Assembly: GCF_009914755.1 (NCBI RefSeq)
Contig: NC_060936.1
Origin: the human T2T-CHM13v2.0 reference genome, Homo sapiens
Direction: 5' to 3' (one strand)
Length of the DNA: 64,000 nucleotides
The notes beneath the pieces are model-generated. The model saw only the letters and a program-made list of their open reading frames with translations, ran no database searches and had not been told where the DNA came from. Shown here in pieces: positions 12,996-53,151 of this stretch; positions within the stretch are counted from its first letter, which is position 1; each line of letters starts with the position of its first letter. The translations under genes and the position numbers were made by a program.

Positions 12996-15276
12996 TGTTT
13001 AAGTCAATTTTCACATTGCTGATAAAGCCAAACCTGAGACTGGGCAATTTACAAAAGAAAGAGGTTTATTGGACTCAACAGTTCTACATGGCTGGAGAGG
13101 CTTCACAATCACGGTAGAAGGTGAAAGACATTTCTTAAATGGCGGCAGCAAGAGAGAAGAGAGCTTGTGCAGGGAAACTCCCCTTTTTAAAATTATCAGA
13201 TCTTGTGAGCCTTGTTTGCTATCGCAAGAACAGCATGGGAAAGACCTGCCCCCCATGATTCAGTTATCTTTCATTGGGTCCCTCGCACAACACGTGGGAA
13301 TTCCGGGAGCTACAAGATGAGATTTAAGTGGGGACACATAGCCAGACCATATCATTCCACTCCTGGCCCCTCCCAAATCTCATGTCTTCACATTTCAAAA
13401 CCAATCATGCCTTCCTTGCAGTCCCCCAAAGACTTAACTGTTTTCAGCATTAACTCAAAAGTCCACTCTCCAACGTTACATCTGAGACAAGGCAAGTCCC
13501 TCCCATCTATGAGCCTGTAAAATCAAAAGCAAGTTAGCTACTTCCTAGATACAATGGGGATATAGGCATTGGGTAAATACAGCCATTCCAAATGGGAGAA
13601 ATTGGCCAAGACAATGGGACTCCAGGCCCCATGCAAGTCTGAAATGCAGCAGGGCAGTCAAATCTTAAATCTCTAAAATGATCTCCTTTGACTCCATGTC
13701 TTGCACCCAGGTCACACTGATGCAAGAGGTTCCCATGATCTTGGGCAGCTCTGTCCCTGTGGCTTTGCAGGGTACCGCCTCCCTCCTGGCTGCTTTCACA
13801 GACTTCTATTGAGTGTCTGCACCTTTTCCTGGCACATGGTGCAAGCTGTTGGTGGATCTACCATTCTGGGGTCTGGAAGACAGTGCCCCTCTAGTCCCAG
13901 CTCCACTAGGCTGTGCCCCATGGGGAACTCTGTGTGGGAGCTCCCACCCTACATTTGACTTGCACACTCTCCCAGCAGAGGTTCTCCATGAGCACCCTGC
14001 CCCTGCAGCAAACTTCCAATTGGACATCCAGGCATTTCCATACATCCTGTGAAACCTAGGCAGAAGTTCCCAAACCTCAGTTCTTGACTTCTGTGCACCT
14101 GCAGGCTTAACACCACATGGAAGCTGCCAAAGTGTGGGGCTTGCACCATCAGAAGCCATGGCCTGAGGTGTACCTTGGCCACTTTTAGTCATGGCCAGAG
14201 AGGCTGGGATGCAGAACATCAAGTCCCTAGACTGCATACAGCAAAGAGCCTATGGTTCTGGTCCACAAAACCATTTTTTACTCCTAGGTTTGCAGGCCTG
14301 TGATGGGAGGGGCTACCGCAAAGGTCTCTGACATGACCTGAAGACATTTACCCCATTGTCTTGGGTATTAAGATTTGGCTCCTCATAACTTTGCAAATTT
14401 CTGCAGCCAGCTTGAATAAAAAATCCCTCAGAAGATGGGATTTTCTGTTCTATCACATTGTCAGGCCACACATTTTTCATACTTTTATGCTGTTTCCCTC
14501 TAAAACCGAATGCCTTTAACAGCACCCAAGTCACCTCTTGAATGCTTTGCTGCTTAGAAATTTCTTCCACCAGAAACCCTAAATCATCTCACTCAAGTTC
14601 AAAATCCCACAAATCTCTGGGACAGGGGAAAAATTCCACCAGTTTCTTTGCTAAAACATAGCAAGAGTCACCTTTGTTTCGGTTCCCAACAAATTCCTCA
14701 TCTCCATCTGAGACGACTTCAGATGGAGTTGTCCACATCACTCTCAGCATTTTGGTCAAAGCCATTTGACAAGTCTCTAGGGAGTTCCAAACTTTCCCAC
14801 ATTTTCCTATCTTCTGAGCTGTCCAAACTGTTCCAATCTCTGCCTGCTACTGAGTTCCAAAGTTGCTTCCACATTTTGAGGTATCTACAGCAGTGCCCAC
14901 TCTATTGGTACCAATTTTCTGTGTTAGTCTGTTTTCACACTGCTGATAAAGGCATACTCAAGACTGGGCAATTTACAAAAGAAACAGTTTTATTGGACTC
15001 ACAGATGTACATGGGTGGGGAAGCCTCACAATCATAGAAGAAGGTGAAAGGCACTTCCTATATGGTGGCAGCAAGAGAGAAGAGAGATTGTGCAGGCAAT
15101 CTTTCCTTTTTAAAACTATAAGATCTCATGAGACTTACTTGCTATTACAAGAATAGCACGGGAAAGAGCTGCCCCCATGATTCAATTATCTTTCACTGGT
15201 TCCCTCCCATAACACATAGGAATTATGGGAGCTACAAGATGAGATTTGGGTGGGGACACAGAGCCAAACCACATCA
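12996..15276 (-). mobile_element. Full-length THE1 (THE1A/B-like) MaLR: LTR 12996-13354, internal 13355-14919, LTR 14920-15276
   Basis: two ~360 bp direct LTRs (gagactgggcaatttacaaaagaaa...ggggacaca-agcca-acca-atca) flanking a ~1.56 kb THE1-int; PPT complement (ccactcctggcccctccc) next to the left LTR; degenerate TSD tgtca/ttcca. Confidence 0.95.
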
Positions 15277-15532
15277 TTCCATGAACAATTATGTCCCTCT
15301 GGATTCTCAATGGGCTAAATGTGTGTTATGGTGTGTGTTCAGTGCTCAGACACCCAATTTATAACTGTAACATAACCTTCAGTTCTTCTTTCCCAGTGCC
15401 TCATAGTCTGCCAGAGGTGAGAATCTAGGGCCTTCTCAGATATTTCCTGGGTGCATAAACAACCTCATACACGCATGTTCCTTCTAGATTCCCAGGAATA
15501 TATTGGGACATTTCAACCTCTTGAAACCTCTT

Positions 15533-16830: not shown

Positions 16831-18013
16831 TTATGTGAGTATTAGTATAGCCTATAATAAATGTCTGTTTTTATAACTGAGGAGTTCTCTTGAGTCAGCA
16901 GTTTTAAAAAAAAACACATAAATTTAAATAAGGTCTGGTATTCAGACCTTATTATTTTACATGTAAATGTGAACCATATACAACTTGACCAATAGTTAAT
17001 TTATGTATTGCAATAAACAAGTGAGTATAACCAAAGTGTGGTTCTATCACTCCTACTTTTTTGTGTTATTGGAAAAAAAATCCAGAGTTCTTTAAGATGA
17101 AAGGCTGAATAATTTTATTCATTGTGTTGCTATCTTATTGTTCTTGCTTTGTGTCTCTATAGGTCTGAATTGTTTTCTAATGTGTCATAACATTTTCTTC
17201 TGTTTATACCATGCTTGTTTTTGTCTGATATCAGATCAAGTACACTACTGCGGAAAAGTCTTGACATCCTTCAACATGACTTTATAATCACTCATCATTC
17301 AAACTCAGCTATACAATCTGTATCTGAAACATTGTTACTGTTATAAATATTTCTTTCCTAATTACCATTTCATAGATCAACAGAATATTACATTTTCTTT
17401 CTCACAAAAACAAAATAATAATTGTCACTACCAATTATTGAGGATCAACTATAAGGTAGGCACTGACCCAGTCCCAGGAATAATAATAACAATGAGTACT
17501 CTATATTGAGAAAGGTTTTATGCATATCTCATTAGTCTATACAACAAACGTATAAATGAAGTATTCTTATTTTAGCAGTGAGAACAATGAGATTTTTGAA
17601 AGCTACATGAGTAGAAAATTGAAGAGCTTTATTTTTAATCTAGTTCAAAATACATGCTCTTTATATTTTACCATACAGCCACTCCATATAAATGCAGGCA
17701 AAAATATTTCCCTTTAAGTCATATTGTTACAAAGGTCTTCTCCAGTGATGTTGGAGTGACATTATAGGTTGCTTGTAAATGTAACAATTGTTTTCAAATT
17801 TATCATTGCTTCTAAGACTGTTCTGCTTTACTTAAAACTGTTCTTGTTGGTTGACTATTGATTCCTCCTCTCATGCATATCTTGCTCTTCCTTCTATATG
17901 TCTTTTACCCATGACATCTGGCGTTAAATATATTTAATGGTTTCATAGTCATTAACATATAAATTATGCTAGATCCCACTCTTACACTCCTTGTTCCGTA
18001 AGTTATCCAGCAC

Positions 18014-18054
18014 TGTGTCAGTTAGTAAGCATGCATACCCACACAAAACACACA

Positions 18055-18097
<43 letters not shown>

Positions 18098-18475
18098 CAA
18101 TACTACTGAATAAACCACCTCAAAATCCTATGGGTTAAAACAATAATTTTTCTCATAGTCTGGGGGTCAACTGAGGGTAAGCAGATTTGGCTGGACTCAG
18201 CTAAAAGTCTTGCTGATCTCAGCTGATGGCATTCAGGCATCTGAAAATAGACTGATAAAGATTGAGTTCTACCCCTACTTTTTTTTCCCATATGCAATAT
18301 TTGGCTTGCTGGACGTTTTATTTCATTGTGATGTAATATGCACAAAAGAGGATCACCAACAGTGCAAGTACTTTTCAAACCTCTGCTTTTATAACTTCTG
18401 CTAAAATTATATTGGACAAAACAAGTCTCTGAATTCTCTGAATCCTGGATAAAAATGTAGACTGCTACAGTTAAC
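18014..18475 (-). mobile_element. Old MLT1 (F/G/H-like) LTR containing a (CA)n
   Basis: tgtgtcagttag...aaaccacctcaaaa...ttaaaacaataatttttctcatagtctgggggtcaactg. Confidence 0.5.
18040..18095. repeat. (CA)n microsatellite
   Basis: direct reading, ~19 pure units plus an interrupted 5' part. Confidence 0.97.
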
Positions 18476-19186
18476 ATTACATCTCATACATCTGGATGGC
18501 TTATGACATACACAAATCTACTCTGGAGCCAGTTCATTCTCGTCATAGTTCAGGAAGAGCCATTGCACTAAATTTACTATCAACCTTACCTACCAACAGA
18601 AAAATAATGTTCACACAATTCAGTCTTCTTCCTTGTATGTAATGGTGAATTAAGATAGGAGTCATTAGCATACCATCCTCATTTGTTTACTACACAAATA
18701 AATGGGCCACCTCTCTTTAGTTTTCACCTTTTTGGGGAGCATGATATAAAGGGTAATTCATTCATGAGAAATATGTAAGTGAACTAAAAATAATTGAAAT
18801 TGTCAGTCTGCAAATTACCCAGGTTGGTGCAGAAACACTTTCAACAGTGAGGAAGGTGTTTCTTAAATATATTATATTGCTTGTCCCCAAATAGCTGTCA
18901 TTTCTGTATATTCTCTGTATAAGAAAATAGAAAAAGGTATTAAAGTAAGGAAAGTTGGTGAATTATGATTAATAGCAAATGTGTGGTGATAATTTCAAAT
19001 TTGACTTGAGATAAAGCTTAAATAATTGTTTTAATAACACAGATAAGGTAGAAGTTTTCCTTTTAAGATGTATATATACCTATATCTACGTATAAATACA
19101 TGTATCTCAAGCTAATATAAATAAAGCTAATTTATATTGATATGAAGCTATTTTATATGTATATATACTTAAGTATATATATATTT

Positions 19187-19677
19187 AAAATTATTTGCAT
19201 CTGGAAGAACTTATTGTCTTTGTATAGCATATCAAATAATTCCAGAATTTCATGTGTATTTCCTATTTAGTAAAACTCATATTATTTTTCCATTCAATAC
19301 TGGAAGGTAAACAGTTTATCTTGAAAATCAGCTGGAAACTTTTGACAGATACTTCATCATTGCCTGAGTGACAGCTTTCTCTGACACATCAATGAATCCT
19401 TGGTCTTCCCAAGGCTTGTGAATTCTCTGATGGTCTGAAGGGATTTGGCTATTTCTACTTCTTAAACTGAATTACTGGGCTTATAACAGAGAATTACTGT
19501 TATATATAATAGTTGTTTATTTTAAGAATGTTTCACACCATAATCTTTGGAATAAATTTTCAGGCCCAATTTCTATAATTTAAACTAAAATTTGCCGCCT
19601 CTTCAAATAATTCAACTGAAGGAAATTAGATGAGAATATGAAATACGTCTTCAGTACCCTTCTCTTCTAATTCATCT

Positions 19678-19729
<52 letters not shown>

Positions 19730-20030
19730 CGACAATGACAACAATCAGAGAGTCAACACTGACTTCTTAGCCCCTAGATAGGCAGATGTCATTTTACTTT
19801 GATTCCAATTTCAAAAATATTTAGCATCTTAAAATAATGAACCCAGAAATTCAACAAATAGGGTCCCTTATCTTTCATTAAATTAACATCATTTTAAAAG
19901 CAAACATATTGGTTGAAGTGATTTGTTACATGATCTTCAATATAATTAAACTACATGATTAAAATAAAAATATATAATTTGTATTCAGCATTAGTTCATT
20001 ATATAACACAATTTTACTCTGAAATGACAT
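19187..20030 (+). repeat. Left arm of a long inverted duplication
   Basis: reverse complement aligns colinearly with 21085-21892; exact 48-bp block 19309-19356 = rc(21724-21771) and exact 42-bp block 19221-19262 = rc(21816-21857). Confidence 0.95.
19683..19728. repeat. (CA)n microsatellite, ~23 units
   Basis: direct reading. Confidence 0.97.
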
Positions 20031-20643
20031 TAATTATTGGCCTACAATTAGAGACCAGGCTTTTACAAAGTTGAAAATGATTGATAGTATACTCTTAGGA
20101 TCATATAATACTAAAATCATTCAATTATTTATTTCTAGATATACAGTCACCCTCAAAGCATGTATGTATAGATTTTATGAATCACTTAACCATTTTGCAT
20201 CTCTTTCCATATGTTAAATATGTCAATAATACACATGTCAAAAGCATAACCATTAATAACCTTACAGAGGTATAATTTAAGTAACTTTAAATCATTACAG
20301 TCACCTTCCAGTTGCCAGGCTGTCTTGAAAATATGTAATTGTTAAGTTGATGCTATAGTAACTGTCAATGTTTCTAATGGCAACCAAGAAAAGCAATCTT
20401 GAAGTTTAGCATTTTGAAAAGATTCAAAGGAAAAAAATTGGAAAAAATTATCTGACTACCTCTAACAATATTATGAAAAACAGCAAAGAGAACAGTTTGA
20501 AAATGTGTAAGTCCTATGCAAATTTGTTGACATGGTTCTAAGGATAGCTTTAATTTTCCCAAAGACAACTATTTGAGCCACTATAATTACTTTAATGTGC
20601 TTTTATTTTTGTTTAGACAAAAATTATAATTAGTTATAATTGG

Positions 20644-20647
20644 GTTT

Positions 20648-20686
<39 letters not shown>

Positions 20687-20970
20687 TTGAGACAGAGTCT
20701 TGCTCTGTCACCCAGGCTGGAGTGCAGTGGCTCCATCTGAGCTCACTGCAAATTCCACCTCCTGGATTCAAGCAATTCTCCCTCCTCAGCCTCCCAAGTA
20801 GCTGAGATTATAGGCGCCCACCACCACGCCCAGCTAATTTTTGTATTTTTAGTAGAGATATGGTTTCACCCCATTGGCCAGGCTGGTCTTGAACTCCTGA
20901 CCTCAAGTGATCTGCCCGCCTCGGCCTCCCAAAGAGCTGGGATTATAGGCGTGAGCCACCACACTTGGCC
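20644..20970 (-). mobile_element. AluS (Sx/Sz-like) with (GTT)n tail, in the inverted-repeat spacer
   Basis: gagacagagtcttgctctgtcacccaggctgg...ctcctgacctcaagtgatctgcccgcc...gtgagccaccacacttggcc. Confidence 0.95.
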
Positions 20971-21084
20971 TGTCTAAATATAATTGTTGATTCATTCATT
21001 ACAGTATTTAAAGCAAGGTTGTGAAAGTTTTGATAGTCTACTATACTTTTTAAATGAGGTATACTTCTCTTACAGTAGGAATGC

Positions 21085-21892
21085 ATGTCTTTTTAGAATA
21101 AAATTGTGTTATATAATAAATTAATGCTGAATACAAATTATGTATTTTTATTTTAACCATACAGTTTAATTGTATGGAAGATCACGTAATAAATCATTTC
21201 AACCAACACAATTTTGCTTTTAAAATTATGTTAATTTAATGAAAGATAAGAGACCTTATTTGTTGAATTTCTAGGTCTGTTCTATTAAAATGCTAAACAT
21301 TTTTGAAACTGGAATCAAAGTAAGGTGATTTCTGCCTATCTAGTGGCTAAGAAGTCAGTGCTGACTCTCTGGTTGTTATTGTCATTGTGTGTGCGTGTGT
21401 GTAGATGAATTAGAAGGGAAGGGTGCTGAAGACATGTTCTCATCCAATTGTCCTCAGTTTAATTATTTGAAAAGATGGCAAAATTTAGTTTAAAGTATAC
21501 CTGAATCCCTAATTGTGCCTAAAAATTTATTCCAACGATTATGCTATGGAGTATTCTTAAAATTAAAACTATTGTGTATACCAATCATTCTCTATCATAG
21601 TCCAGCAATTCAGTTTAGAAAGTAGAAATAGCCAAATCTCTTCAGACCATCAGAGAATTTATAAACCTTGGGAAGGCCAAAGATTTATTGATGTGTCGCA
21701 GAAAGCTGTCACTCAGGCATTGGTGAAGTATCTGTCAAAAGTTTCCAGCTGATTTTCAAGATAAACTGTTTGCCTTCCAGCATGGAAGAGAAAAATAATG
21801 AGTTTTACTAAATAAGAAATACACATGAAATTCTGGAATTATTTGATATGCTATACAATGACAATCAATTCTTCAAGACGCATATAATTTCA
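21085..21892 (-). repeat. Right arm of a long inverted duplication
   Basis: see left arm; carries a shorter (TG)n at ~21386-21402 at the position matching the left-arm (CA)n. Confidence 0.95.
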
Positions 21893-22455
21893 AGATAATA
21901 AGCACAGGCTTTGTCAGCTTACACTGTGCAAACTCCTAGAAGTGATTCAGATGATCATTTAGACTGATTAGGAGTAAGGAAGAGATCTCCTGTGATATTA
22001 AAGTGAACTGATGTTATACGGAATTATACTTTTCTAGTTGTCTTTTTAAATATGTATATTTTGTTTTTTCATAGAGCTTCTAAGAAATGGGTGATGTGTT
22101 TCACAATTTACAATGTCTATAAATAGAGGAAATGTATACTTTACAAAGAAAAATACCTGTCCAATTACATTTTATTTGTAAATGCTCTTTCTAAAATGAT
22201 TGAAATCACATTTTCCATCTTGAGAAGGCAGAAATTTTTCATAGAATTTTCTTGATCTACTTTATTATATTGAAAAACTTTTCTCATAAAGTCATAGGTA
22301 AGCTTTTATTGAGCTTTGTCTTTACTTTGTCTTATTATTACTAATTCAATATTTTTTCTTTCCCTACTTTTTCTATGAATCTCTCAAGTTATAATCTATA
22401 GTTTCCTCTGACATTCTACATTTATTATTGTATTATCAGGACATAATATCTATTT

Positions 22456-22673
22456 CAGTTTCTCAACTTCAGCACTAATGACATTATGTGTCATGTAATT
22501 CTTTGTTGTGGGGAACTGTCTTGTGCATTGTAGCATATTTAGCAACATCTCTGGCCGCTACCCACTAGATGTCAGCAGCAAAACCTCCTTACCCCATCTG
22601 TGACAACCAAAATTATCTCCAGACACTGCCAAATGTTCTCTGGAGGGCAAAATGACTCCACTTGAGAACTACT
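22456..22673 (-). mobile_element. MER20 (hAT-Charlie)
   Basis: cagtttctcaacttcagcacta-tgacatt...ctacccactagatgtcagcagc...tgtgacaaccaaaattatctccagacactgccaaatgt...ttgagaact. Confidence 0.9.
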
Positions 22674-23666
22674 AATCTATATAGTACTTGTTACATGGCT
22701 TGGTAAAGTTTACATACGGAACTATGATTCATAACCCAGGTCTCTCTAGTTCTTAAAAAACCCAGGTCCCTCTATTTCTTACAGTTTGTGTGATCTTGGG
22801 CCTCAGTTTTGTAACCTCTGAAATGTAAATAATACATTTCTTATAGAATTGTTATTTAAATTGAATGGGATAGTATATGTTTTAAAAATAACAATTTATA
22901 CCTTTTACTATAAAGAAAATTTAAAAGTAGCATTTAGGGACAAAAGGAAGAGAGACCATATCTAGAGTTGTTTATGTATATATTATTATCATTTCAGTCC
23001 AACAATTTTGAAAATTACTTGTTTTATCTTGTAAAGTCGTTATTGGCGTGTATTTTTGATCCGACTTCTTGCTCTTTTCATTCATTTTCTTAGACACAAT
23101 ACTTTGTAAAGGTATAAAACTTTTGGTCACCTTCCTTGTTATAATTCCTCATGTAATTGAGTAAAAGTTTTGAGTTGCATAGCATACTATAATTACACTC
23201 AACTATGCCCGTTATTTTATGCGTTCATTATTCGTTCCAACTACTAGCCTTAACGTTCAATCTTGTTATTTCTCTTCATGCATTGACCACTGAAATTTGT
23301 TCCTACTCTAATAGGGAATTAGACACCGGAAGTGATATCCATTTGTGTGTATCATATCTTTCATTGGTCAACATAACTTAATTTTTACCAGCCTTGAATA
23401 TTAGCCAGCCTTTAGTGGCCTGATCTGACTCAAGTGTCATGAAAAATTGGGAATGGGAAAAACTCTTAGGAGACTATTTCAGTAATCTGAAAGAACAATG
23501 ATAACAAAGAAGAGATTGATATTAGAGCTATGTAGATATGAATCAGGTTGGATATCAATGATGAGCAAAATGATGGCATCTGAAGTAACTTAAGGTTTGT
23601 GGGACATGAATGACTTATTAGACTGAAGAATCGTGGGAGAAAAGATGTGTGCATTTTGCTATCTAA

Positions 23667-23728
23667 CTATATATGTATATGTAGGTATGTACACACATAT
23701 GTCTTTATATATATGTATGCATATATAG
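23667..23728. repeat. (TA/TG)-rich low-complexity tract
   Basis: tatatatgtatatgtaggtatgtacacacatatg... Confidence 0.6.
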
Positions 23729-24652
23729 AAGTTAAAACTTTAAGATGAATCATAAAAAAATAAAATCTTCCAGTATTAGAATTATTCATATCATGTAAAT
23801 CTTTTTAGGGGGCCAATTAATTTTTAAAGTCTTACATTAAATGAATAATTTACTTATAAAAAAATATCAGCCATCATATGATTGCTAATGGGAAGATGAC
23901 AACATACTCTTAGAACGTATTACTACAGTTCACAAACCATGACTTTGTGACAGCTATATAATTTTAGTGAAATTATGAAGTAGAAAAAGCATTGTGATGT
24001 TGGAAAAAAATGCTTCAAAATCAGTTCTTGCACTGAGACATTATATAATAACATAGTTGCCACCGCTTCATATTTTTTTCTTGCAAGTAGAAGAAATTGT
24101 CATATATTCCCTCTTTTACATTGTTAACTTTATTTACACTAATATACTAATCAGATTTGAAAGTATTATCAGAAATTATTGCTTTTCTTTTCATACCTCT
24201 CAAAGTTCGAATAGTTCATCTTAAACTTCAGATCCTTCTACAACAGTTAAATTTAATCCAACATCCTTTGAATATTTTACCTCCATTGCTCTCTTTCACC
24301 AGTTTGATAAGAGCTTATGCAGCAAACCTCAGAAAATGGTTTTAAATGAATATGTCATTTAATGAACTAACACCATGAAGCTTCAAATGTCAATAGGATA
24401 ATGAGTTAGCTTTCAGTGGGAAACAAATAATATGATATTATAAAACATTATTTTAAATTAAAAGAGATTTGCTAATTCTGGAATAGTTACCCTCTCTCAT
24501 TACATAATGTAATCCTACAAATGGTGAATTAATACTATGAAAAAAATTTAATATAAAGTAAAATTAATGTATATATTATAATGTAATATAAATAGATATA
24601 TGCATAGATACATAAGTAGACACACAATAAACTCATAGTAATAACTGAGTTA

Positions 24653-37900: not shown

Positions 37901-38333
37901 CTTTGCTCTTGGTTATGGAATTTTACTTCTCATGCTAAATCCAAGGATGTACAGTGATTATGGTCAGAATAACATCACAGGGAAATTGATACTTTCCGAG
38001 GAGGAATTTCCATGGATCATTCCCAGGAGGACTTTTCAAAATAGGAGAGAAAAGTATTTTGGGATTTCGGAGTCCAGAAGATCCCAGAATTAAACAATCT
38101 CTCTCTCTTTTTAAAGCATCTTAGACTATAAGGGGGGCCATAACAATAGGCTACCACCTAAGATTTTTGCTGTGCCTTAGCTACTGCTGTCTCAACAATG
38201 AGTTCCTTAGGACCAAACAGTTCTTAATTATTCTTCACAGTTGTGCTTTTATGGGTTTTGTATTAAATAAAAACCTTAGAAGAATTAGATAGCTCTGATA
38301 TTCTCCTCTTTAGGACAGGTTATATTTTTAGGA

Positions 38334-39370
38334 TGAATTAGTTTGTTTTCACACTGCTGACAAAGACATACTCGAGATTGGGCAATTTACAAAAGAAAAA
38401 GCTTTATTGAACTTAACAGTTCCACATGGCTCAGGAGGCCTCACAATCACAGTAGAAGGCAAGGAAAGCAAGTGACATCTAACATAGATGGCAGCAGGCA
38501 AACAGAGATCTTGTGCAGGGGAATGCCTCTTTTTAAAACCATCAGATCTTGTGAGACTTATTCACTATCACGAGAACGGTGCAGGAAAGACCTGACCCCA
38601 TAATTCAATCACCTCCCACTGGGTTCCTCCAACAGACAATATGTGAGAATTGTGGGAGCTACAATTCAAGATGAGATTTGGGTGAGGACACAGCCAAACC
38701 ATATTATTATACCCTTGGCCCCTCCCAACTCTCATTTCCTCACACCTTAAAACCAATTATGCCTTCCCAACAGTCCCCCAAAATCTTAACTCATTTCAGC
38801 ATTAACTCAATAGTTCACAGTCAAGTGTCTCATCTGAAACAAGGCAAGACCCTTCCACTTATGAGCCTGTAAAGCCAAAAGCAAGTTAGTTACTACCTAG
38901 ATACAATGGGGGTACAGGTATTGGGTAAATACTGTCGTTCCATATGGGAGAAATTGGCCAGAACAACGTAGGTACAGTAGGCCCCATGCCAGTCTGAAAT
39001 CCAGCAGAGCAGTCAAATCTTGAAGCTTCAAAATGATCTTTATTGAATCCATGTCTTTTTTGAATCCAGCATTCATGTCACACTGATGGAAAAGTTGGGT
39101 GCTCATGCTCTTGGGCAGCTCCACTCTTGTGGCTTTGCAGGGGACAGCCTCCCTCCCTGCTGTTTTCATGGGCTGGTGTTGAGTGTCTGCAGCTTCTTCA
39201 GGCATAGGGTGCAAGCTGTCGATAGATCTACTGTTCTGAGGTCTGGAGGATGGTGGTCCTCTTCTCACAGCTGCACCTGGTGGTGCCCCAGTAGGGACTC
39301 TGTGTGGAGGCTCTGACCCCATAAGGCCCTAGCAGAGGGCTTTCCTTCCATAAGGCCCCAGCAGAGGGCT
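38334..39370 (-). mobile_element. THE1 (A/B-like): 3' LTR 38334-38706 plus truncated internal region
   Basis: ttagtttgttttcacactgctga...gggcaatttacaaaag...gacacagccaaaccatat; internal colinear with 13355-13980; no second LTR. Confidence 0.92.
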
Positions 39371-50715: not shown

Positions 50716-53151
50716 TGATGTGTTTGGATTTGTGTCCCCACCCAAGTCTCATGTTGAATTGTAATCCCCAGTGTTGGAGAAGGGACCTGATGGGAGGTGA
50801 TTGGATGATGGGGCAGATTTTCCACCTGCCATTCTCATGAAAGTGAATGAGATCTCACCAGATCTGGTTGCTTCAAAGTGTGTAACACCTCCCCCTTCAT
50901 GGTCTCTTTCTCCTGCTCTGGCCATATGAAGATGTGCCTGCTTCCCCTTCACCTTCCACTATGATTATAAGTTTCCTCAGACCTTCCCAACCATGCTTCC
51001 CACACAGCCTGTGAAACCATAAGCCAATTAAAACTCTTTTATTTATAAATTACCCACTTTCAGGTATTTTTTTATAGTAGTGTGAGAAAGGACTATACAG
51101 AAAATTGATACTGAGAGTAGGGCATTGCTGTAACAATACCTGAAAATCTGAAAGCTGCTTTGGAACTGGGTAACAGGCAGAGGTTGGAATAGTTTGGAGG
51201 GCTCAGAAGAGAGGAAGACAAAGGAAAGTTTGGACAGGTCCCAGAGACCTGTCAAATGATTTTGGCCAAACTGTTGATAGTGATATGGACAGAGAAGGCA
51301 AAGATGAGGAGGTCTGAGATGGAGGCAAGGAACTTATTGAGTACTAGAGCAAAGTTTACTTTTGTTATGCATTAGCAAAAAGGTTGGAGCCATTGTGCCC
51401 TTGCCCTAGTGATCTGTGAAACTTTGAACTTTAGAGTGATGATTTAGCATATCTGGCAGAAGATATTCCTAAGCAGCAAAATGTTCAAGATGTGGCATTG
51501 CTGCTTCTAGCAGCCTATGTTCATATTTGTGAGCAAAAAAAAAGACATAAAACTGGAACTTACATTTAAATAGGGAAGCAACGTGTAAAAGTTTGGAAAA
51601 TTTGCAGCCTGGCCATGTGGTAGAAAAGAAAATCCCATTTTCTGGGGAGGAATTCAAGCTGGCTGCAGAAATTTGCATAAGTAAAGAGGAGGCAAATGTT
51701 GCTAGCCAAGATAATGGAGAAAACACCTCAAAGGCATTTCAGATACCTTCCTGGCAGCCCCTCCCATCACAGGCCTGGAGGCCTAGGACAGAAGAATGGT
51801 TTTGTGGGCCAGACTCAGGGCCTTGCTGCTCTGTGCAGCCTCAGGACTTAGCACCCTGCATCAGGGCCACTCTAGCCCCACTCATGGCTAAAAGGGCCCA
51901 AAGTACAGATAGGGCCATTGCTTCAGAGGGAGAGTGCAAGCTGTAAGCCTTGGTAGCTTCAATGTTGTGTTAAGCCTGTGGGTGCACAGTGTGTAAAAAT
52001 CTAGGTGGGATCCTCCACCTAGATTTCAGAAGATGTCTGGAAAAGCCCGGATGTCCATGCAGAAGTCTCCCACAGAGACAGAGCCCTCATGGAGAACCTC
52101 TACTAGGGCCATGCAGAGGGGAAATCTGGGGTTGGAGTCCCCACTCAGAGTCCCCACTGGGGCACTGCCTGGTGGAGCTGGGAGAAGAGGGTAACCATCC
52201 TACAGACCCCAGAATTGTAGATCCACTGACAGCTTCAACTGTACACCTAGAATATCCACAGGGACTCAATACCAGCCCATGAAAGCAGCAACCAAGGCTG
52301 TACCCTGCAGAGCCACAGGGTGGAGTTTCCCAAGGCCTTGGGAGCCCAACACTTGCATCAGCATGCCCTGGATATGAGACATGGAATCAAAGAAGATGAT
52401 TTCAGAGCTTTAATATTTAATGATTGCCTCACTGGGTTTTGGACTTGCATGGTACCTCTGCCCCCTTTGTTTTGAGCAATTTCTCCCATTTGAAATGGGA
52501 ATATTTACCCAATGCCTATATCCTCATTGTATCTTGAAAGTATCTAACTTTTTTGTTTTTTGTTTTTTTGTTTTGTTTTGTTTTTTAGTTTTACAGGCTC
52601 ATAGGTGGAAGAGATTTGCTTTGTTTCAGATGAGACTTTGGATCTTGGGCTTTTGAGTTAATGCTGGAATGAGTTATGACTTTAGGGGACTATTGGGAAG
52701 GCATGATTGTATTTTGAAGTATGAGAAGGACACGAGATTTGGGAGGGGCAAGGGGTGGAATAATGTGGTTTGGATTTGTGTCTCCACACAAATCTCATGT
52801 TGAATTGTAATCCTTAATTGGAGAGGGGCCTGGTGGGAGGTGATTGGATCATGGGGGGTGGATTTCTCCTTGCTGTTCTCATGACAGATAATAGCTAATG
52901 AGTTCTTAGCAGATCTTGTTGTTTAAAAGAGTGTAACACCTCCCACTTCACTCTCTCTCCCTCCTGCTCTGGTCATGTGAAGACATGCCTGCTTTCCCCT
53001 CACCTTCTAACATGATTGTAAGTTTCTCGAGGCCCTCCTTGTCATGCTTTCTATACAGCCTGCAGAACTGTGAGCCAATTAAACCTCTTTGTTTTATCAA
53101 TTGCCCAGTTTCAGGTATTTCTTTATAGCAGTGCGAGAATGAACTAATACA
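50716..53151 (+). mobile_element. Full-length MSTA/THE1D-like MaLR: LTR 50716-51099, internal 51100-52760, LTR 52761-53151
   Basis: two ~390 bp direct LTRs (gtttggatttgtgtc...tctcatgttgaattgtaatcc...ctaataca); PPT gggaggggcaaggggtggaa before the 3' LTR; near-TSD gttat/gatat. Confidence 0.95.

What the first reader, a model, noticed from the sequence alone, without database searches (positions are those of the whole stretch)
19187..21892. Long inverted duplication of apparently unique DNA: potential >800 bp dsRNA hairpin or cruciform locus
Seen: 19187-20030 is the colinear reverse complement of 21085-21892. There are exact blocks of 48 bp (19309-19356 vs 21724-21771) and 42 bp (19221-19262 vs 21816-21857). 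By hand, 19348-19481 has 15 mismatches in ~133 nt (~89%); 13 are transitions and 9 would be G:U-compatible in a + strand transcript, which is too few to be significant. The spacer is ~1.05 kb (~0.7 kb without its AluS). I do not recognise the arms as any TE family. Established: long intramolecular dsRNA is a substrate for ADAR1, PKR, MDA5 and Dicer (hairpin endo-siRNA loci), and close inverted repeats promote spacer inversion and arm-to-arm gene conversion. Inference: this is an old fold-back duplication that may act as a non-Alu structured RNA or editing locus if it lies in a transcribed intron or lncRNA.
Basis: partly seen in the sequence, partly recalled or inferred. Interest (0 to 1): 0.8.

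Follow-up and report, generated by a model that had tools for sequence, protein, structure and literature searches.

The report
Old inverted duplication, decaying neutrally
A real 0.85 kb inverted repeat in a human gene desert turns out to be an ancient local copy-and-flip of a dead transposon plus its flank, and shows no sign of being anything but a structural fossil.

Summary
Arms 19178-20030 and 21085-21900 are colinear reverse complements: 711 of 802 aligned bases identical (88.7%), 14 indels, 1054-bp spacer carrying one Alu.

The arms are not unrecognisable DNA. About 80% of each arm is a decayed fragment of an old pogo/Tigger-like DNA transposon with at least 35 other places in the genome at 60-69% identity.

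The repeat is nevertheless one duplication, not two insertions or terminal inverted repeats:
- The arms are far closer to each other than to any other copy.
- They share a microsatellite and at least 164 bp of non-transposon flank.
- The transposon runs 235 bp past the repeat boundary on the right only, so the left arm is probably the derived copy.

Divergence looks neutral. K2P is 0.125 and even along the arms; G:U-compatible transitions are 33 versus 34 for the two strands; polarised changes are 32 versus 37.

If transcribed, it would fold into a roughly 720-bp imperfect hairpin. No gene is annotated here, and transcription could not be tested.

Verdict: an ordinary structural fossil, likely about 40-60 million years old. 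Low interest.

The parts
19150..19191 (.). AT-rich near-palindrome (21-nt arms, no spacer, 90% complementary) inside a TA-rich low-complexity stretch, sitting exactly on the outer junction of the left arm
   Evidence: I11, I8; sequence
19178..20030 (-). Left arm of the inverted repeat, probably the derived inverted copy (transposon sense strand is minus)
   Evidence: polarity
19182..19866 (-). Partial pogo/Tigger-like transposon fragment within the left arm. The inner end is approximate, and the outer end is cut by the repeat boundary
   Evidence: profile positions 347-806 = 19220-19639, envelope 19200-19840
19336..19458 (-). Decayed remnant of the transposase HTH_Tnp_Tc5 coding region, left arm
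   Evidence: peptide alignment to the chrX copy; no Pfam hit on its own
19683..19728 (.). (CA)n microsatellite inside the transposon fragment, expanded relative to the right arm
   Evidence: 34-bp gap
19867..20030 (.). Non-transposon flank shared by both arms, left copy
   Evidence: about 12-13% mismatches, like the rest of the arm
20031..21084 (.). Spacer (1054 bp). 20031-20640 is single-copy in the genome
20641..20974 (-). Alu inserted in the spacer, with its (TTG)n/T-rich tail on the left
   Evidence: masked 20591-20974 in the hub table
21085..21900 (+). Right arm of the inverted repeat, probably the source copy
21250..22135 (+). Near full-length copy of the ~0.9-1.0 kb pogo/Tigger-like element. 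It continues 235 bp beyond the right arm's outer boundary. The inner end is approximate
   Evidence: one nhmmer hit, profile 4-934 = 22135-21300, E 5.2e-58
21386..21402 (.). Short interrupted (TG)n, counterpart of the left arm's (CA)n
21622..21744 (+). Decayed remnant of the transposase HTH_Tnp_Tc5 coding region, right arm
   Evidence: no Pfam hit on its own

Best explanation
An ~0.82-0.85 kb stretch of ordinary intergenic DNA was copied once, in inverted orientation. It consisted of about 165 bp of unique flank plus the first ~650 bp of a long-dead pogo/Tigger-like transposon that already carried a CA microsatellite. The copy landed about 0.7 kb away (1.05 kb after a later Alu insertion), next to a TA-rich palindromic tract.

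The right arm is probably the source and the left arm the copy. The most likely mechanism is inference only: a replication or repair template switch. In that model a growing + strand leaves its template at the TA-rich tract, copies the + strand backwards from about 21900 to 21085, then returns (FoSTeS/MMBIR-type or templated insertion).

Since then both arms have decayed neutrally and independently to 88.7% identity (K2P 0.125). That places the event very roughly 40-60 million years ago, in an early anthropoid ancestor. This date rests on recalled calibrations.

The locus does nothing detectable today. It is a structural fossil that would form a long imperfect hairpin only if something transcribed through it.
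For: Shown:
1. The arms match each other at E 6.8e-247 and are the only high-identity copies in the T2T genome. The spacer is single-copy.
2. The outer part of each arm belongs to an interspersed family. There are 43 matches from the chrX copy (54 candidates, 40 scored), and 37 of 37 fetched locus files (35 distinct places) hit the family profile. Pairwise identity of the arms to those copies is only 59-70%, against 88.7% between the arms.
3. The family is pogo/Tigger-like. The chr6 copy L030 hits PF03221 HTH_Tnp_Tc5 at 42.4 bits (cut-off 22.2), E 6.8e-11, and CENP-B 1HLV at E 0.0025. The chrX copy scores 21 bits.
4. The family has sharp ends in 10-16 copies. Its inner end lies at about 19866 / 21250, so at least 164 bp of each arm is non-transposon flank, diverged like the rest of the arm.
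5. A 20-copy profile aligns in one piece to 22135-21300, that is 235 bp beyond the repeat boundary on the right. It aligns only to 19220-19639 on the left, and nothing was found in the left flank.
6. Neutral pattern:
   - ts/tv is 67/24.
   - G:U-compatible transitions are 33 (+ transcript) versus 34 (- transcript), p = 1.0.
   - Eight 100-column bins have 7-17 mismatches, chi-square p = 0.52.
   - The transposon part is 11.4% diverged and the inner part (19735-20030) 11.6%.
   - Polarised by the family majority, 32 changes are left-derived and 37 right-derived, p = 0.63.
7. In none of the 35 other places held is there a comparable inverted pair.
Against: - No orthologous primate or outgroup sequence could be examined. 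The date, the empty site and the polarity are therefore indirect.
- The left copy could have been longer and later truncated. That would weaken the 'right arm is the source' inference.
- The second-longest exact run (43 bp) is mildly unusual (permutation p = 0.015; longest run p = 0.10), and the outer 200 bp is less diverged (7-8% versus 10-17%). A small old gene-conversion tract or local constraint is not excluded.
- The alignment, made through the profile, shows 101 differences in 556 columns. That is more than the pairwise alignment, so some columns are misaligned.
- Absence of function is argued from the lack of annotation and from neutral substitution patterns, not from expression data. 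Chen et al. 2017 (abstract) report 7.8% of human intergenic inverted duplicates expressed under strict criteria.
Confidence: 0.8

Rival explanations
1. The locus is transcribed in some tissue, for example germline or brain. The ~720-bp imperfect hairpin then acts as a non-Alu dsRNA substrate for ADAR, Dicer, PKR or MDA5.
For: - Either strand folds into a long hairpin. MFE is -1244 (+) and -1264 (-) kcal/mol, with 721 and 733 inter-arm pairs of 1065 pairs in 58 helices, the longest uninterrupted helix being 60 and 61 bp.
- Chen et al. 2017 report that a minority (7.8%) of human intergenic inverted duplicates are expressed (abstract).
- In HEK293T, 8% of candidate immunogenic dsRNAs came from repeats other than Alu (PMC12695637, passages).
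Against: - No gene is annotated in the 64-kb window or within 100 kb upstream (hub table).
- Rfam finds nothing in the arms.
- There is no strand bias in G:U-compatible changes (33 versus 34).
- Divergence is even along the arms, and 14 indels include a 34-bp bulge.
- Both arms changed equally.
- A 1054-bp loop exceeds the 1000-nt limit beyond which Chen et al. considered hairpin formation less likely (Methods section).
Confidence: 0.05
2. The arms are two independent, opposite-orientation insertions of the same transposon family, kept similar by gene conversion between the arms.
For: - Most of each arm is a member of one interspersed family.
- The outer 200 bp is somewhat less diverged, and there is a 43-bp exact run (p = 0.015).
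Against: - The arms share at least 164 bp beyond the family's sharp terminus.
- They share the same internal microsatellite and the same inner breakpoint (...GACAT).
- Copies of this family are otherwise only 59-70% identical to the arms. Two insertions would have been too diverged for conversion long before the arms' 12.5% split.
- Divergence is the same inside and outside the transposon part (11.4% versus 11.6%).
Confidence: 0.02
3. The whole 2.7-kb unit is one mobile element with ~0.85-kb terminal inverted repeats (a foldback-type or long-TIR DNA transposon).
For: It has inverted-repeat architecture and transposon-derived arm content.
Against: - Only one such unit exists in the genome.
- In none of the 35 other family places held (±1.5 kb, or 10 kb for four loci) is there a comparable inverted pair. 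One locus, L038, has two opposite-strand fragments that overlap by only 17 profile positions.
- The transposon's own terminus faces the spacer, while the outer edges of the arms cut the element internally. This is the reverse of a TIR layout.
- The spacer is unique DNA.
Confidence: 0.02
4. It is an inverted duplication as in the best explanation, but with the opposite or undeterminable polarity. Either the left arm is the source, or a larger duplicate was later trimmed on the left by a deletion or TA-tract expansion.
For: - The polarity argument rests on one feature, namely that the transposon continues only on the right.
- The left junction lies in an unstable TA-rich palindromic tract that could have replaced sequence later.
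Against: - The left arm's homology to the right arm and its homology to the family end together at about 19178-19220, while the right-hand element is continuous to 22135.
- No trace of the missing 235 bp is found in 17001-19177 (E <= 1).
Confidence: 0.12

Closest known systems
Intergenic 'inverted duplicates' of vertebrate genomes (Chen, Oliver, Zhang, Gao & Long 2017, PMC5398296; abstract, Methods section 6 and Results section 12 read)
   Same: Two reverse-complementary arms separated by a spacer, located in an intergenic region, hairpin-forming if transcribed, and mostly without known function. The paper counts 4,315,271 such structures in human.
   Different: The arms (~0.85 kb) are far longer than typical, and the spacer (1054 nt) is just above that catalogue's 1000-nt cap, so the locus was probably not catalogued there. 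The supplement could not be read.
Template-switch / fold-back rearrangements: FoSTeS/MMBIR-type inverted duplications and short template switches (PMC5453318, PMC7954356, PMC3907307, PMC10766183 seen as search listing and abstract starts only; mechanism otherwise recalled)
   Same: An inverted copy of nearby sequence is placed close to its source. The possible microhomology at the outer junction is TA-rich (TAT.TAT).
   Different: The size class lies in between: much longer than the short template switches and far smaller than the large fold-back duplications of those papers. The junction microhomology cannot be read reliably after ~12% divergence and without the empty site.
Hairpin-RNA (hpRNA / endo-siRNA) loci of Drosophila and mouse oocytes, and plant proto-MIR genes formed by inverted duplication (recalled, not looked up here)
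   Same: The architecture matches: an inverted duplication giving a several-hundred-bp imperfect stem.
   Different: Those loci are transcribed, yield small RNAs and usually derive from a target gene. Here the arms are dead-transposon and intergenic DNA, no transcript is annotated, and the other family copies are only 59-70% identical, so no plausible target exists.
Inverted Alu pairs, the main human dsRNA and A-to-I editing substrate (PMC12695637 and PMC11838218, passages read)
   Same: It is an intramolecular inverted repeat of repeat-derived sequence with a kb-scale loop.
   Different: The arms are not Alu and are about three times longer than an Alu. The pair arose by one duplication rather than two insertions. 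It lies outside any annotated transcript, whereas the candidate immunogenic dsRNAs in that study were mostly in untranslated or intergenic regions and not in introns.
pogo/Tigger (TcMar) DNA transposons and CENP-B-type HTH_Tnp_Tc5 domain
   Same: The family to which the arms' transposon part belongs encodes a recognisable HTH_Tnp_Tc5 remnant (PF03221 at 42.4 bits in copy L030; CENP-B 1HLV at E 0.0025).
   Different: The family unit is only ~0.9-1.0 kb. No DDE domain, terminal inverted repeats or TA target-site duplication were established. The exact Dfam/Repbase name could not be determined because no such library was available.

Membership tests
Local inverted duplication (inverted duplicate in the sense of Chen et al. 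2017) | Two colinear reverse-complementary arms well above chance | tested here: met
   88.7% identity over 802 aligned columns; E 6.8e-247
Local inverted duplication (inverted duplicate in the sense of Chen et al. 2017) | Spacer of 0-1000 nt (that catalogue's cap) | tested here: not met
   The spacer is 1054 nt. It would be about 720 nt without the 334-bp Alu, which may have inserted later (order of events not tested).
Local inverted duplication (inverted duplicate in the sense of Chen et al. 2017) | Arms derive from one duplication event rather than from two repeat insertions | tested here: met
   Shared non-transposon flank of at least 164 bp, shared microsatellite, and only two copies in the genome
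DNA transposon with long terminal inverted repeats / foldback element | Several genomic copies with the same inverted-arm architecture | tested here: not met
   Only one unit exists in the genome. None of the 35 other family places has a comparable inverted pair.
DNA transposon with long terminal inverted repeats / foldback element | Element termini at the outer ends of the arms, flanked by a target-site duplication | tested here: not met
   The family terminus faces the spacer (about 19866 / 21250). The outer edges cut the element internally, and on the right the element continues to 22135.
pogo/Tigger-like transposon (content of the arms) | Tc5/CENP-B-type HTH transposase domain | tested here: met
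   Met in relatives: L030 hits PF03221 at 42.4 bits, L019 at 21 bits, below the 22.2 cut-off. Ten further copies gave 0 hits in 30 frames at E <= 0.01. The arms themselves gave 0 hits in 8 translations, so their membership rests on DNA homology.
pogo/Tigger-like transposon (content of the arms) | Interspersed, multi-copy, old divergence | tested here: met
   43 matches from one copy, a lower bound; 59-70% identity to the arms
pogo/Tigger-like transposon (content of the arms) | DDE catalytic domain, terminal inverted repeats, TA target-site duplication | tested here: inconclusive
   No DDE match was seen in the ~0.9-kb unit. No convincing terminal inverted repeats were found in four copies. Target-site duplications were not examined.
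Hairpin-RNA / endo-siRNA or ADAR-substrate locus | Long intramolecular stem | tested here: met
   721-733 inter-arm base pairs; longest uninterrupted helix 60-61 bp
Hairpin-RNA / endo-siRNA or ADAR-substrate locus | Transcription through both arms; editing clusters or small RNAs | not testable with these tools
   No expression, editing or small-RNA data were available. No gene is annotated in the window (hub table).
Hairpin-RNA / endo-siRNA or ADAR-substrate locus | Evolutionary signature of a maintained stem (strand-biased G:U-compatible or compensatory change, avoidance of indels) | tested here: not met
   33 versus 34 G:U-compatible transitions, 14 indels, even divergence. Cross-species covariation is not testable here.
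Unstable palindrome / cruciform-prone inverted repeat | Short spacer and near-identical arms | tested here: not met
   Spacer 1054 bp, identity 88.7%, longest identical tract 48 bp. The thresholds are recalled, not looked up.

The most novel reading that the evidence does not exclude
The fossil is not silent. Read-through or cryptic transcription in a restricted tissue such as germline or early embryo would produce an ~0.7-kb non-Alu hairpin, one of the longer single-locus dsRNAs in the human genome. It would be edited by ADAR or diced into endo-siRNAs, giving a primate-specific hpRNA-like locus born from a template-switch duplication of a dead Tigger-like element.
Probability: 0.04. Interest if true: 0.45.

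Novelty: new member of a known kind. Interest (0 to 1): 0.14.

Why it matters
It matters little in itself. Inverted duplicates number in the millions in the human genome (PMC5398296), and this one shows the substitution pattern of neutral decay.

Its modest value lies in two points:
- It is a clean worked example. An embedded old transposon serves as an internal outgroup, showing that an inverted repeat arose by one duplication and suggesting which arm is the copy, without any other species' genome.
- It is a caution. A repeat annotation showing 'two opposite Tigger fragments' would wrongly suggest two insertions.

If it were ever found to be transcribed, it would be an unusually long non-Alu hairpin.

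Tried and rejected
- Rfam at E <= 1 over 17000-24000 gave only Alu-related SRP and miRNA-family hits in the spacer, plus low-complexity miRNA-like hits outside the arms. Nothing fell in the arms.
- A 33-base conserved core searched genome-wide with up to 3 mismatches found only the two arms and the chr9 copy.
- Pairwise Smith-Waterman comparison of the arms' inner 300 bp with 8 family copies found nothing (z <= 1.6). The more sensitive profile later showed that part of this stretch (to about 19840-19866 / 21250-21300) is still transposon. The pairwise negative was therefore partly a sensitivity failure. Only 19867-20030 is treated as non-transposon.
- Pairwise tests for transposon sequence in the right flank were weak: 2 of 5 copies reached z 4.5-5.4. 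A terminal-only profile gave E 0.081. Only the full-length profile settled it.
- No convincing terminal inverted repeats were found in four family copies.
- One row (L019) of protein alignment A2 was entered in the wrong frame, so the alignment was not used further.
- Literature:
  - The generic searches found context papers only.
  - 'RASSF9' plus 'inverted repeat' returned 0 papers.
  - The supplement of PMC5398296 was unreadable.
  - The supplementary tables of PMC12695637 and PMC11838218 were not searched, because no tool-derived GRCh38 coordinates were available. They could in principle list this locus.
- The Alu was not dated and no subfamily was assigned.
Full report
OBSERVATION

The inverted repeat is real.
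- The repeat finder reports seven colinear inverted blocks between 19185-20035 and 21080-21893, at 84-90% complementarity.
- A gapped alignment joins them into arms 19178-20030 and 21085-21900.
- That alignment has 711 matches, 91 mismatches (67 transitions, 24 transversions; 88.7% identity) and 14 indels. The largest indel is a 34-bp difference in a (CA)n tract.
- In a search of the whole T2T assembly the other arm is found at E = 6.8e-247.

- the 48-bp exact block;
- 15 mismatches in 134 nt, 13 of them transitions and 9 G:U-compatible;
- a spacer of 1054 bp.

The spacer holds one minus-strand Alu at about 20641-20974. Its subfamily was not determined.

COPY NUMBER

The arms are a two-copy sequence at high identity. 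Each whole arm and two sub-pieces found only the two arms plus one weak chr9 match, 71% over about 130 bp. The non-Alu spacer segment 20031-20640 is single-copy.

WHAT THE ARMS ARE MADE OF

Following the chr9 match outward revealed an old interspersed repeat family.
- The chr9 copy found copies on chrX, chr2 and a second site on chr12.
- The chrX copy then found 43 matches at 66-86% identity. This is a lower bound: 54 candidates, 40 scored.
- Sensitive pairwise BLAST of the locus against the fetched copies gave 17 hits on the left arm (19182-19646) and 14 on the right arm (21429-21913), all at 59-70% identity.
- A profile built from 18 copies hit all 37 fetched locus files, which represent 35 distinct places.
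- The family unit is about 0.9-1.0 kb. Homology among 16 copies at one end and 10 copies at the other stops within about 50-100 bp of the profile ends.

The family is pogo/Tigger-like.
- The chrX copy, read through its stops, scores 21 bits against PF03221 HTH_Tnp_Tc5, with a cut-off of 22.2.
- The better-preserved chr6 copy scores 42.4 bits, E 6.8e-11.
- The chr6 copy also matches the CENP-B DNA-binding domain 1HLV at E 0.0025.
- Against this, ten other copies gave no Pfam hit in 30 frames at E <= 0.01.
- The arms themselves gave none in 8 translations. Their assignment rests on DNA homology to the family.
- No repeat-family library was available, so the family cannot be named.

WHY IT IS ONE DUPLICATION AND NOT TWO INSERTIONS OR A TIR PAIR

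1. The arms are 88.7% identical to each other but at most 70% identical to any other copy.
2. They share a CA/TG microsatellite inside the element and the same inner breakpoint.
3. The family's terminus lies at about 19866 and 21250, facing the spacer. The innermost 164 bp or more of each arm (19867-20030; 21085 to about 21250) is therefore not transposon, yet it is diverged like the rest (12-13 mismatches per 100 columns).
4. The outer edges of the arms cut the element internally, which is the opposite of a TIR layout.
5. None of the 35 other places holds a comparable inverted pair within the DNA fetched. One locus, L038, has two opposite-strand fragments overlapping by 17 profile positions.

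POLARITY

A full-length 20-copy profile of 1016 positions aligns in a single hit to 22135-21300 (profile 4-934, E 5.2e-58).
- On the right, therefore, the element continues 235 bp beyond the repeat boundary at 21900.
- On the left, only profile 347-806 is present (19220-19639, envelope 19200-19840).
- Nothing else was found in 17001-24000 at E <= 1, apart from one E 0.85 fragment.
- Earlier, weaker tests pointed the same way.

The simplest reading is that the right-hand element with its left flank is the source and the left arm is the inverted partial copy. A later truncation of a longer left copy cannot be excluded without an outgroup.

MODE OF EVOLUTION SINCE THE DUPLICATION

- K2P distance is 0.125.
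- Mismatches per 100 columns range from 7 to 17 (chi-square p = 0.52).
- The transposon part is 11.4% diverged and the inner part 11.6%.
- Seven mismatches lie at CpG sites.
- Transitions that would remain G:U pairs number 33 for a + strand transcript and 34 for a - strand transcript (p = 1.0).
- The longest exact run (48 bp) is not unusual (p = 0.10). The second longest (43 bp) is mildly so (p = 0.015).
- With the family majority as outgroup, 32 differences are derived in the left arm and 37 in the right (p = 0.63). A further 19 match neither arm and 13 have no clear majority. This profile-guided alignment is noisier than the pairwise one.

Nothing here suggests selection for pairing, concerted evolution or unequal rates.

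AGE (INFERENCE)

Each arm has accumulated about 6% change. Judged against recalled human-macaque and human-marmoset divergences, this places the duplication near or somewhat before the catarrhine-platyrrhine split, very roughly 40-60 million years ago. The transposon family, at 59-70% identity to the arms, is far older and was long dead by then. Transposition therefore cannot have made the repeat.

MECHANISM (INFERENCE)

The geometry fits a two-switch template-switch or templated-insertion event.
- A growing + strand stops at about 19177, inside a TA-rich tract that contains a 42-bp near-palindrome (19150-19191).
- It re-primes on the + strand near 21900, copies backwards to 21085, and returns to continue at 20031.
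- A short TA-rich similarity (TAT.TAT) at the outer junction is compatible with microhomology. It is uninformative in low-complexity DNA after 12% divergence.

WHAT IT COULD DO

- If transcribed, either strand folds into a long imperfect hairpin. MFE is -1244 and -1264 kcal/mol, with 721 and 733 inter-arm pairs in 58 helices and longest uninterrupted helices of 60 and 61 bp.
- No gene is annotated in the window or within 100 kb upstream (hub table).
- Rfam finds nothing in the arms.
- No expression data could be consulted.
- At the DNA level, a 1054-bp spacer, 88.7% identity and a longest identical tract of 48 bp make cruciform extrusion or recombinational spacer inversion unlikely. The thresholds are recalled.

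CONTEXT IN PRINT

- Chen et al. 2017 (PMC5398296) used Inverted Repeats Finder with a 1000-nt spacer cap. They report 4,315,271 inverted duplicates in human and 7.8% of intergenic ones expressed (abstract and sections 6 and 12 read). This locus's spacer is just above that cap. Their supplement could not be read.
- A dsRNA-prediction preprint (PMC11838218, passages) gives median lengths of 75-144 bp for non-repetitive predicted dsRNAs, so a ~720-bp stem is long for its class. That scheme listed simple repeats, LTRs, LINEs and SINEs as its repeat classes; whether it would class these DNA-transposon-derived arms as repetitive was not checked.
- PMC12695637 (passages) reports that 90% of candidate immunogenic dsRNAs in HEK293T are inverted Alus and 8% come from other repeats.
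- No paper holds both 'RASSF9' and 'inverted repeat'.
- The searches gave no locus-specific result.

VERDICT

This is a genuine, well-measured inverted repeat whose origin can be reconstructed in unusual detail from one genome. It is an ordinary neutral fossil of a known kind. Low interest.

Noticed in passing
window 19060-19191: A TA-rich low-complexity tract ends in a 42-bp AT near-palindrome (19150-19170 / 19171-19191, 90% complementary, no spacer). It lies exactly at the outer junction of the presumed derived arm and may have been the break or stall site.
   Followed up: partly
window 19683-19728 versus 21386-21402: The same microsatellite has about 23 CA units in the left arm but a short interrupted (TG)n in the right arm. 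This shows expansion or contraction after the duplication.
   Followed up: partly
L030 / L039 (G000 chr6:11003015-11003423): This is the best-preserved copy of the Tigger-like family. Its 49-aa open stretch still scores 42.4 bits on HTH_Tnp_Tc5, and it is 76-86% identical to the chrX copy, against the 60-72% that is usual for the family.
   Followed up: partly
L038 (G000 chr9:106663557-106663676 region): Two fragments of the same family lie on opposite strands about 350 bp apart, overlapping by only 17 profile positions. This may be a small internal inversion.
   Followed up: no
window 13000-15300, 38300-39320, 51300-52700: Several 100-280-bp direct and inverted matches at 72-87% link these three regions (D7, D9, D11-D14, D17, D18, I2, I7-I9, I16, I17, I19). 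They are presumably copies of another interspersed repeat, plus a local ~1.9-kb direct duplication at 13000 / 14920.
   Followed up: no
window 23662-23734: There are sub-threshold Rfam hits to several miRNA families (mir-297, mir-3149, mir-1277) on both strands, well below the gathering scores. They look like a low-complexity palindromic tract rather than a gene.
   Followed up: no
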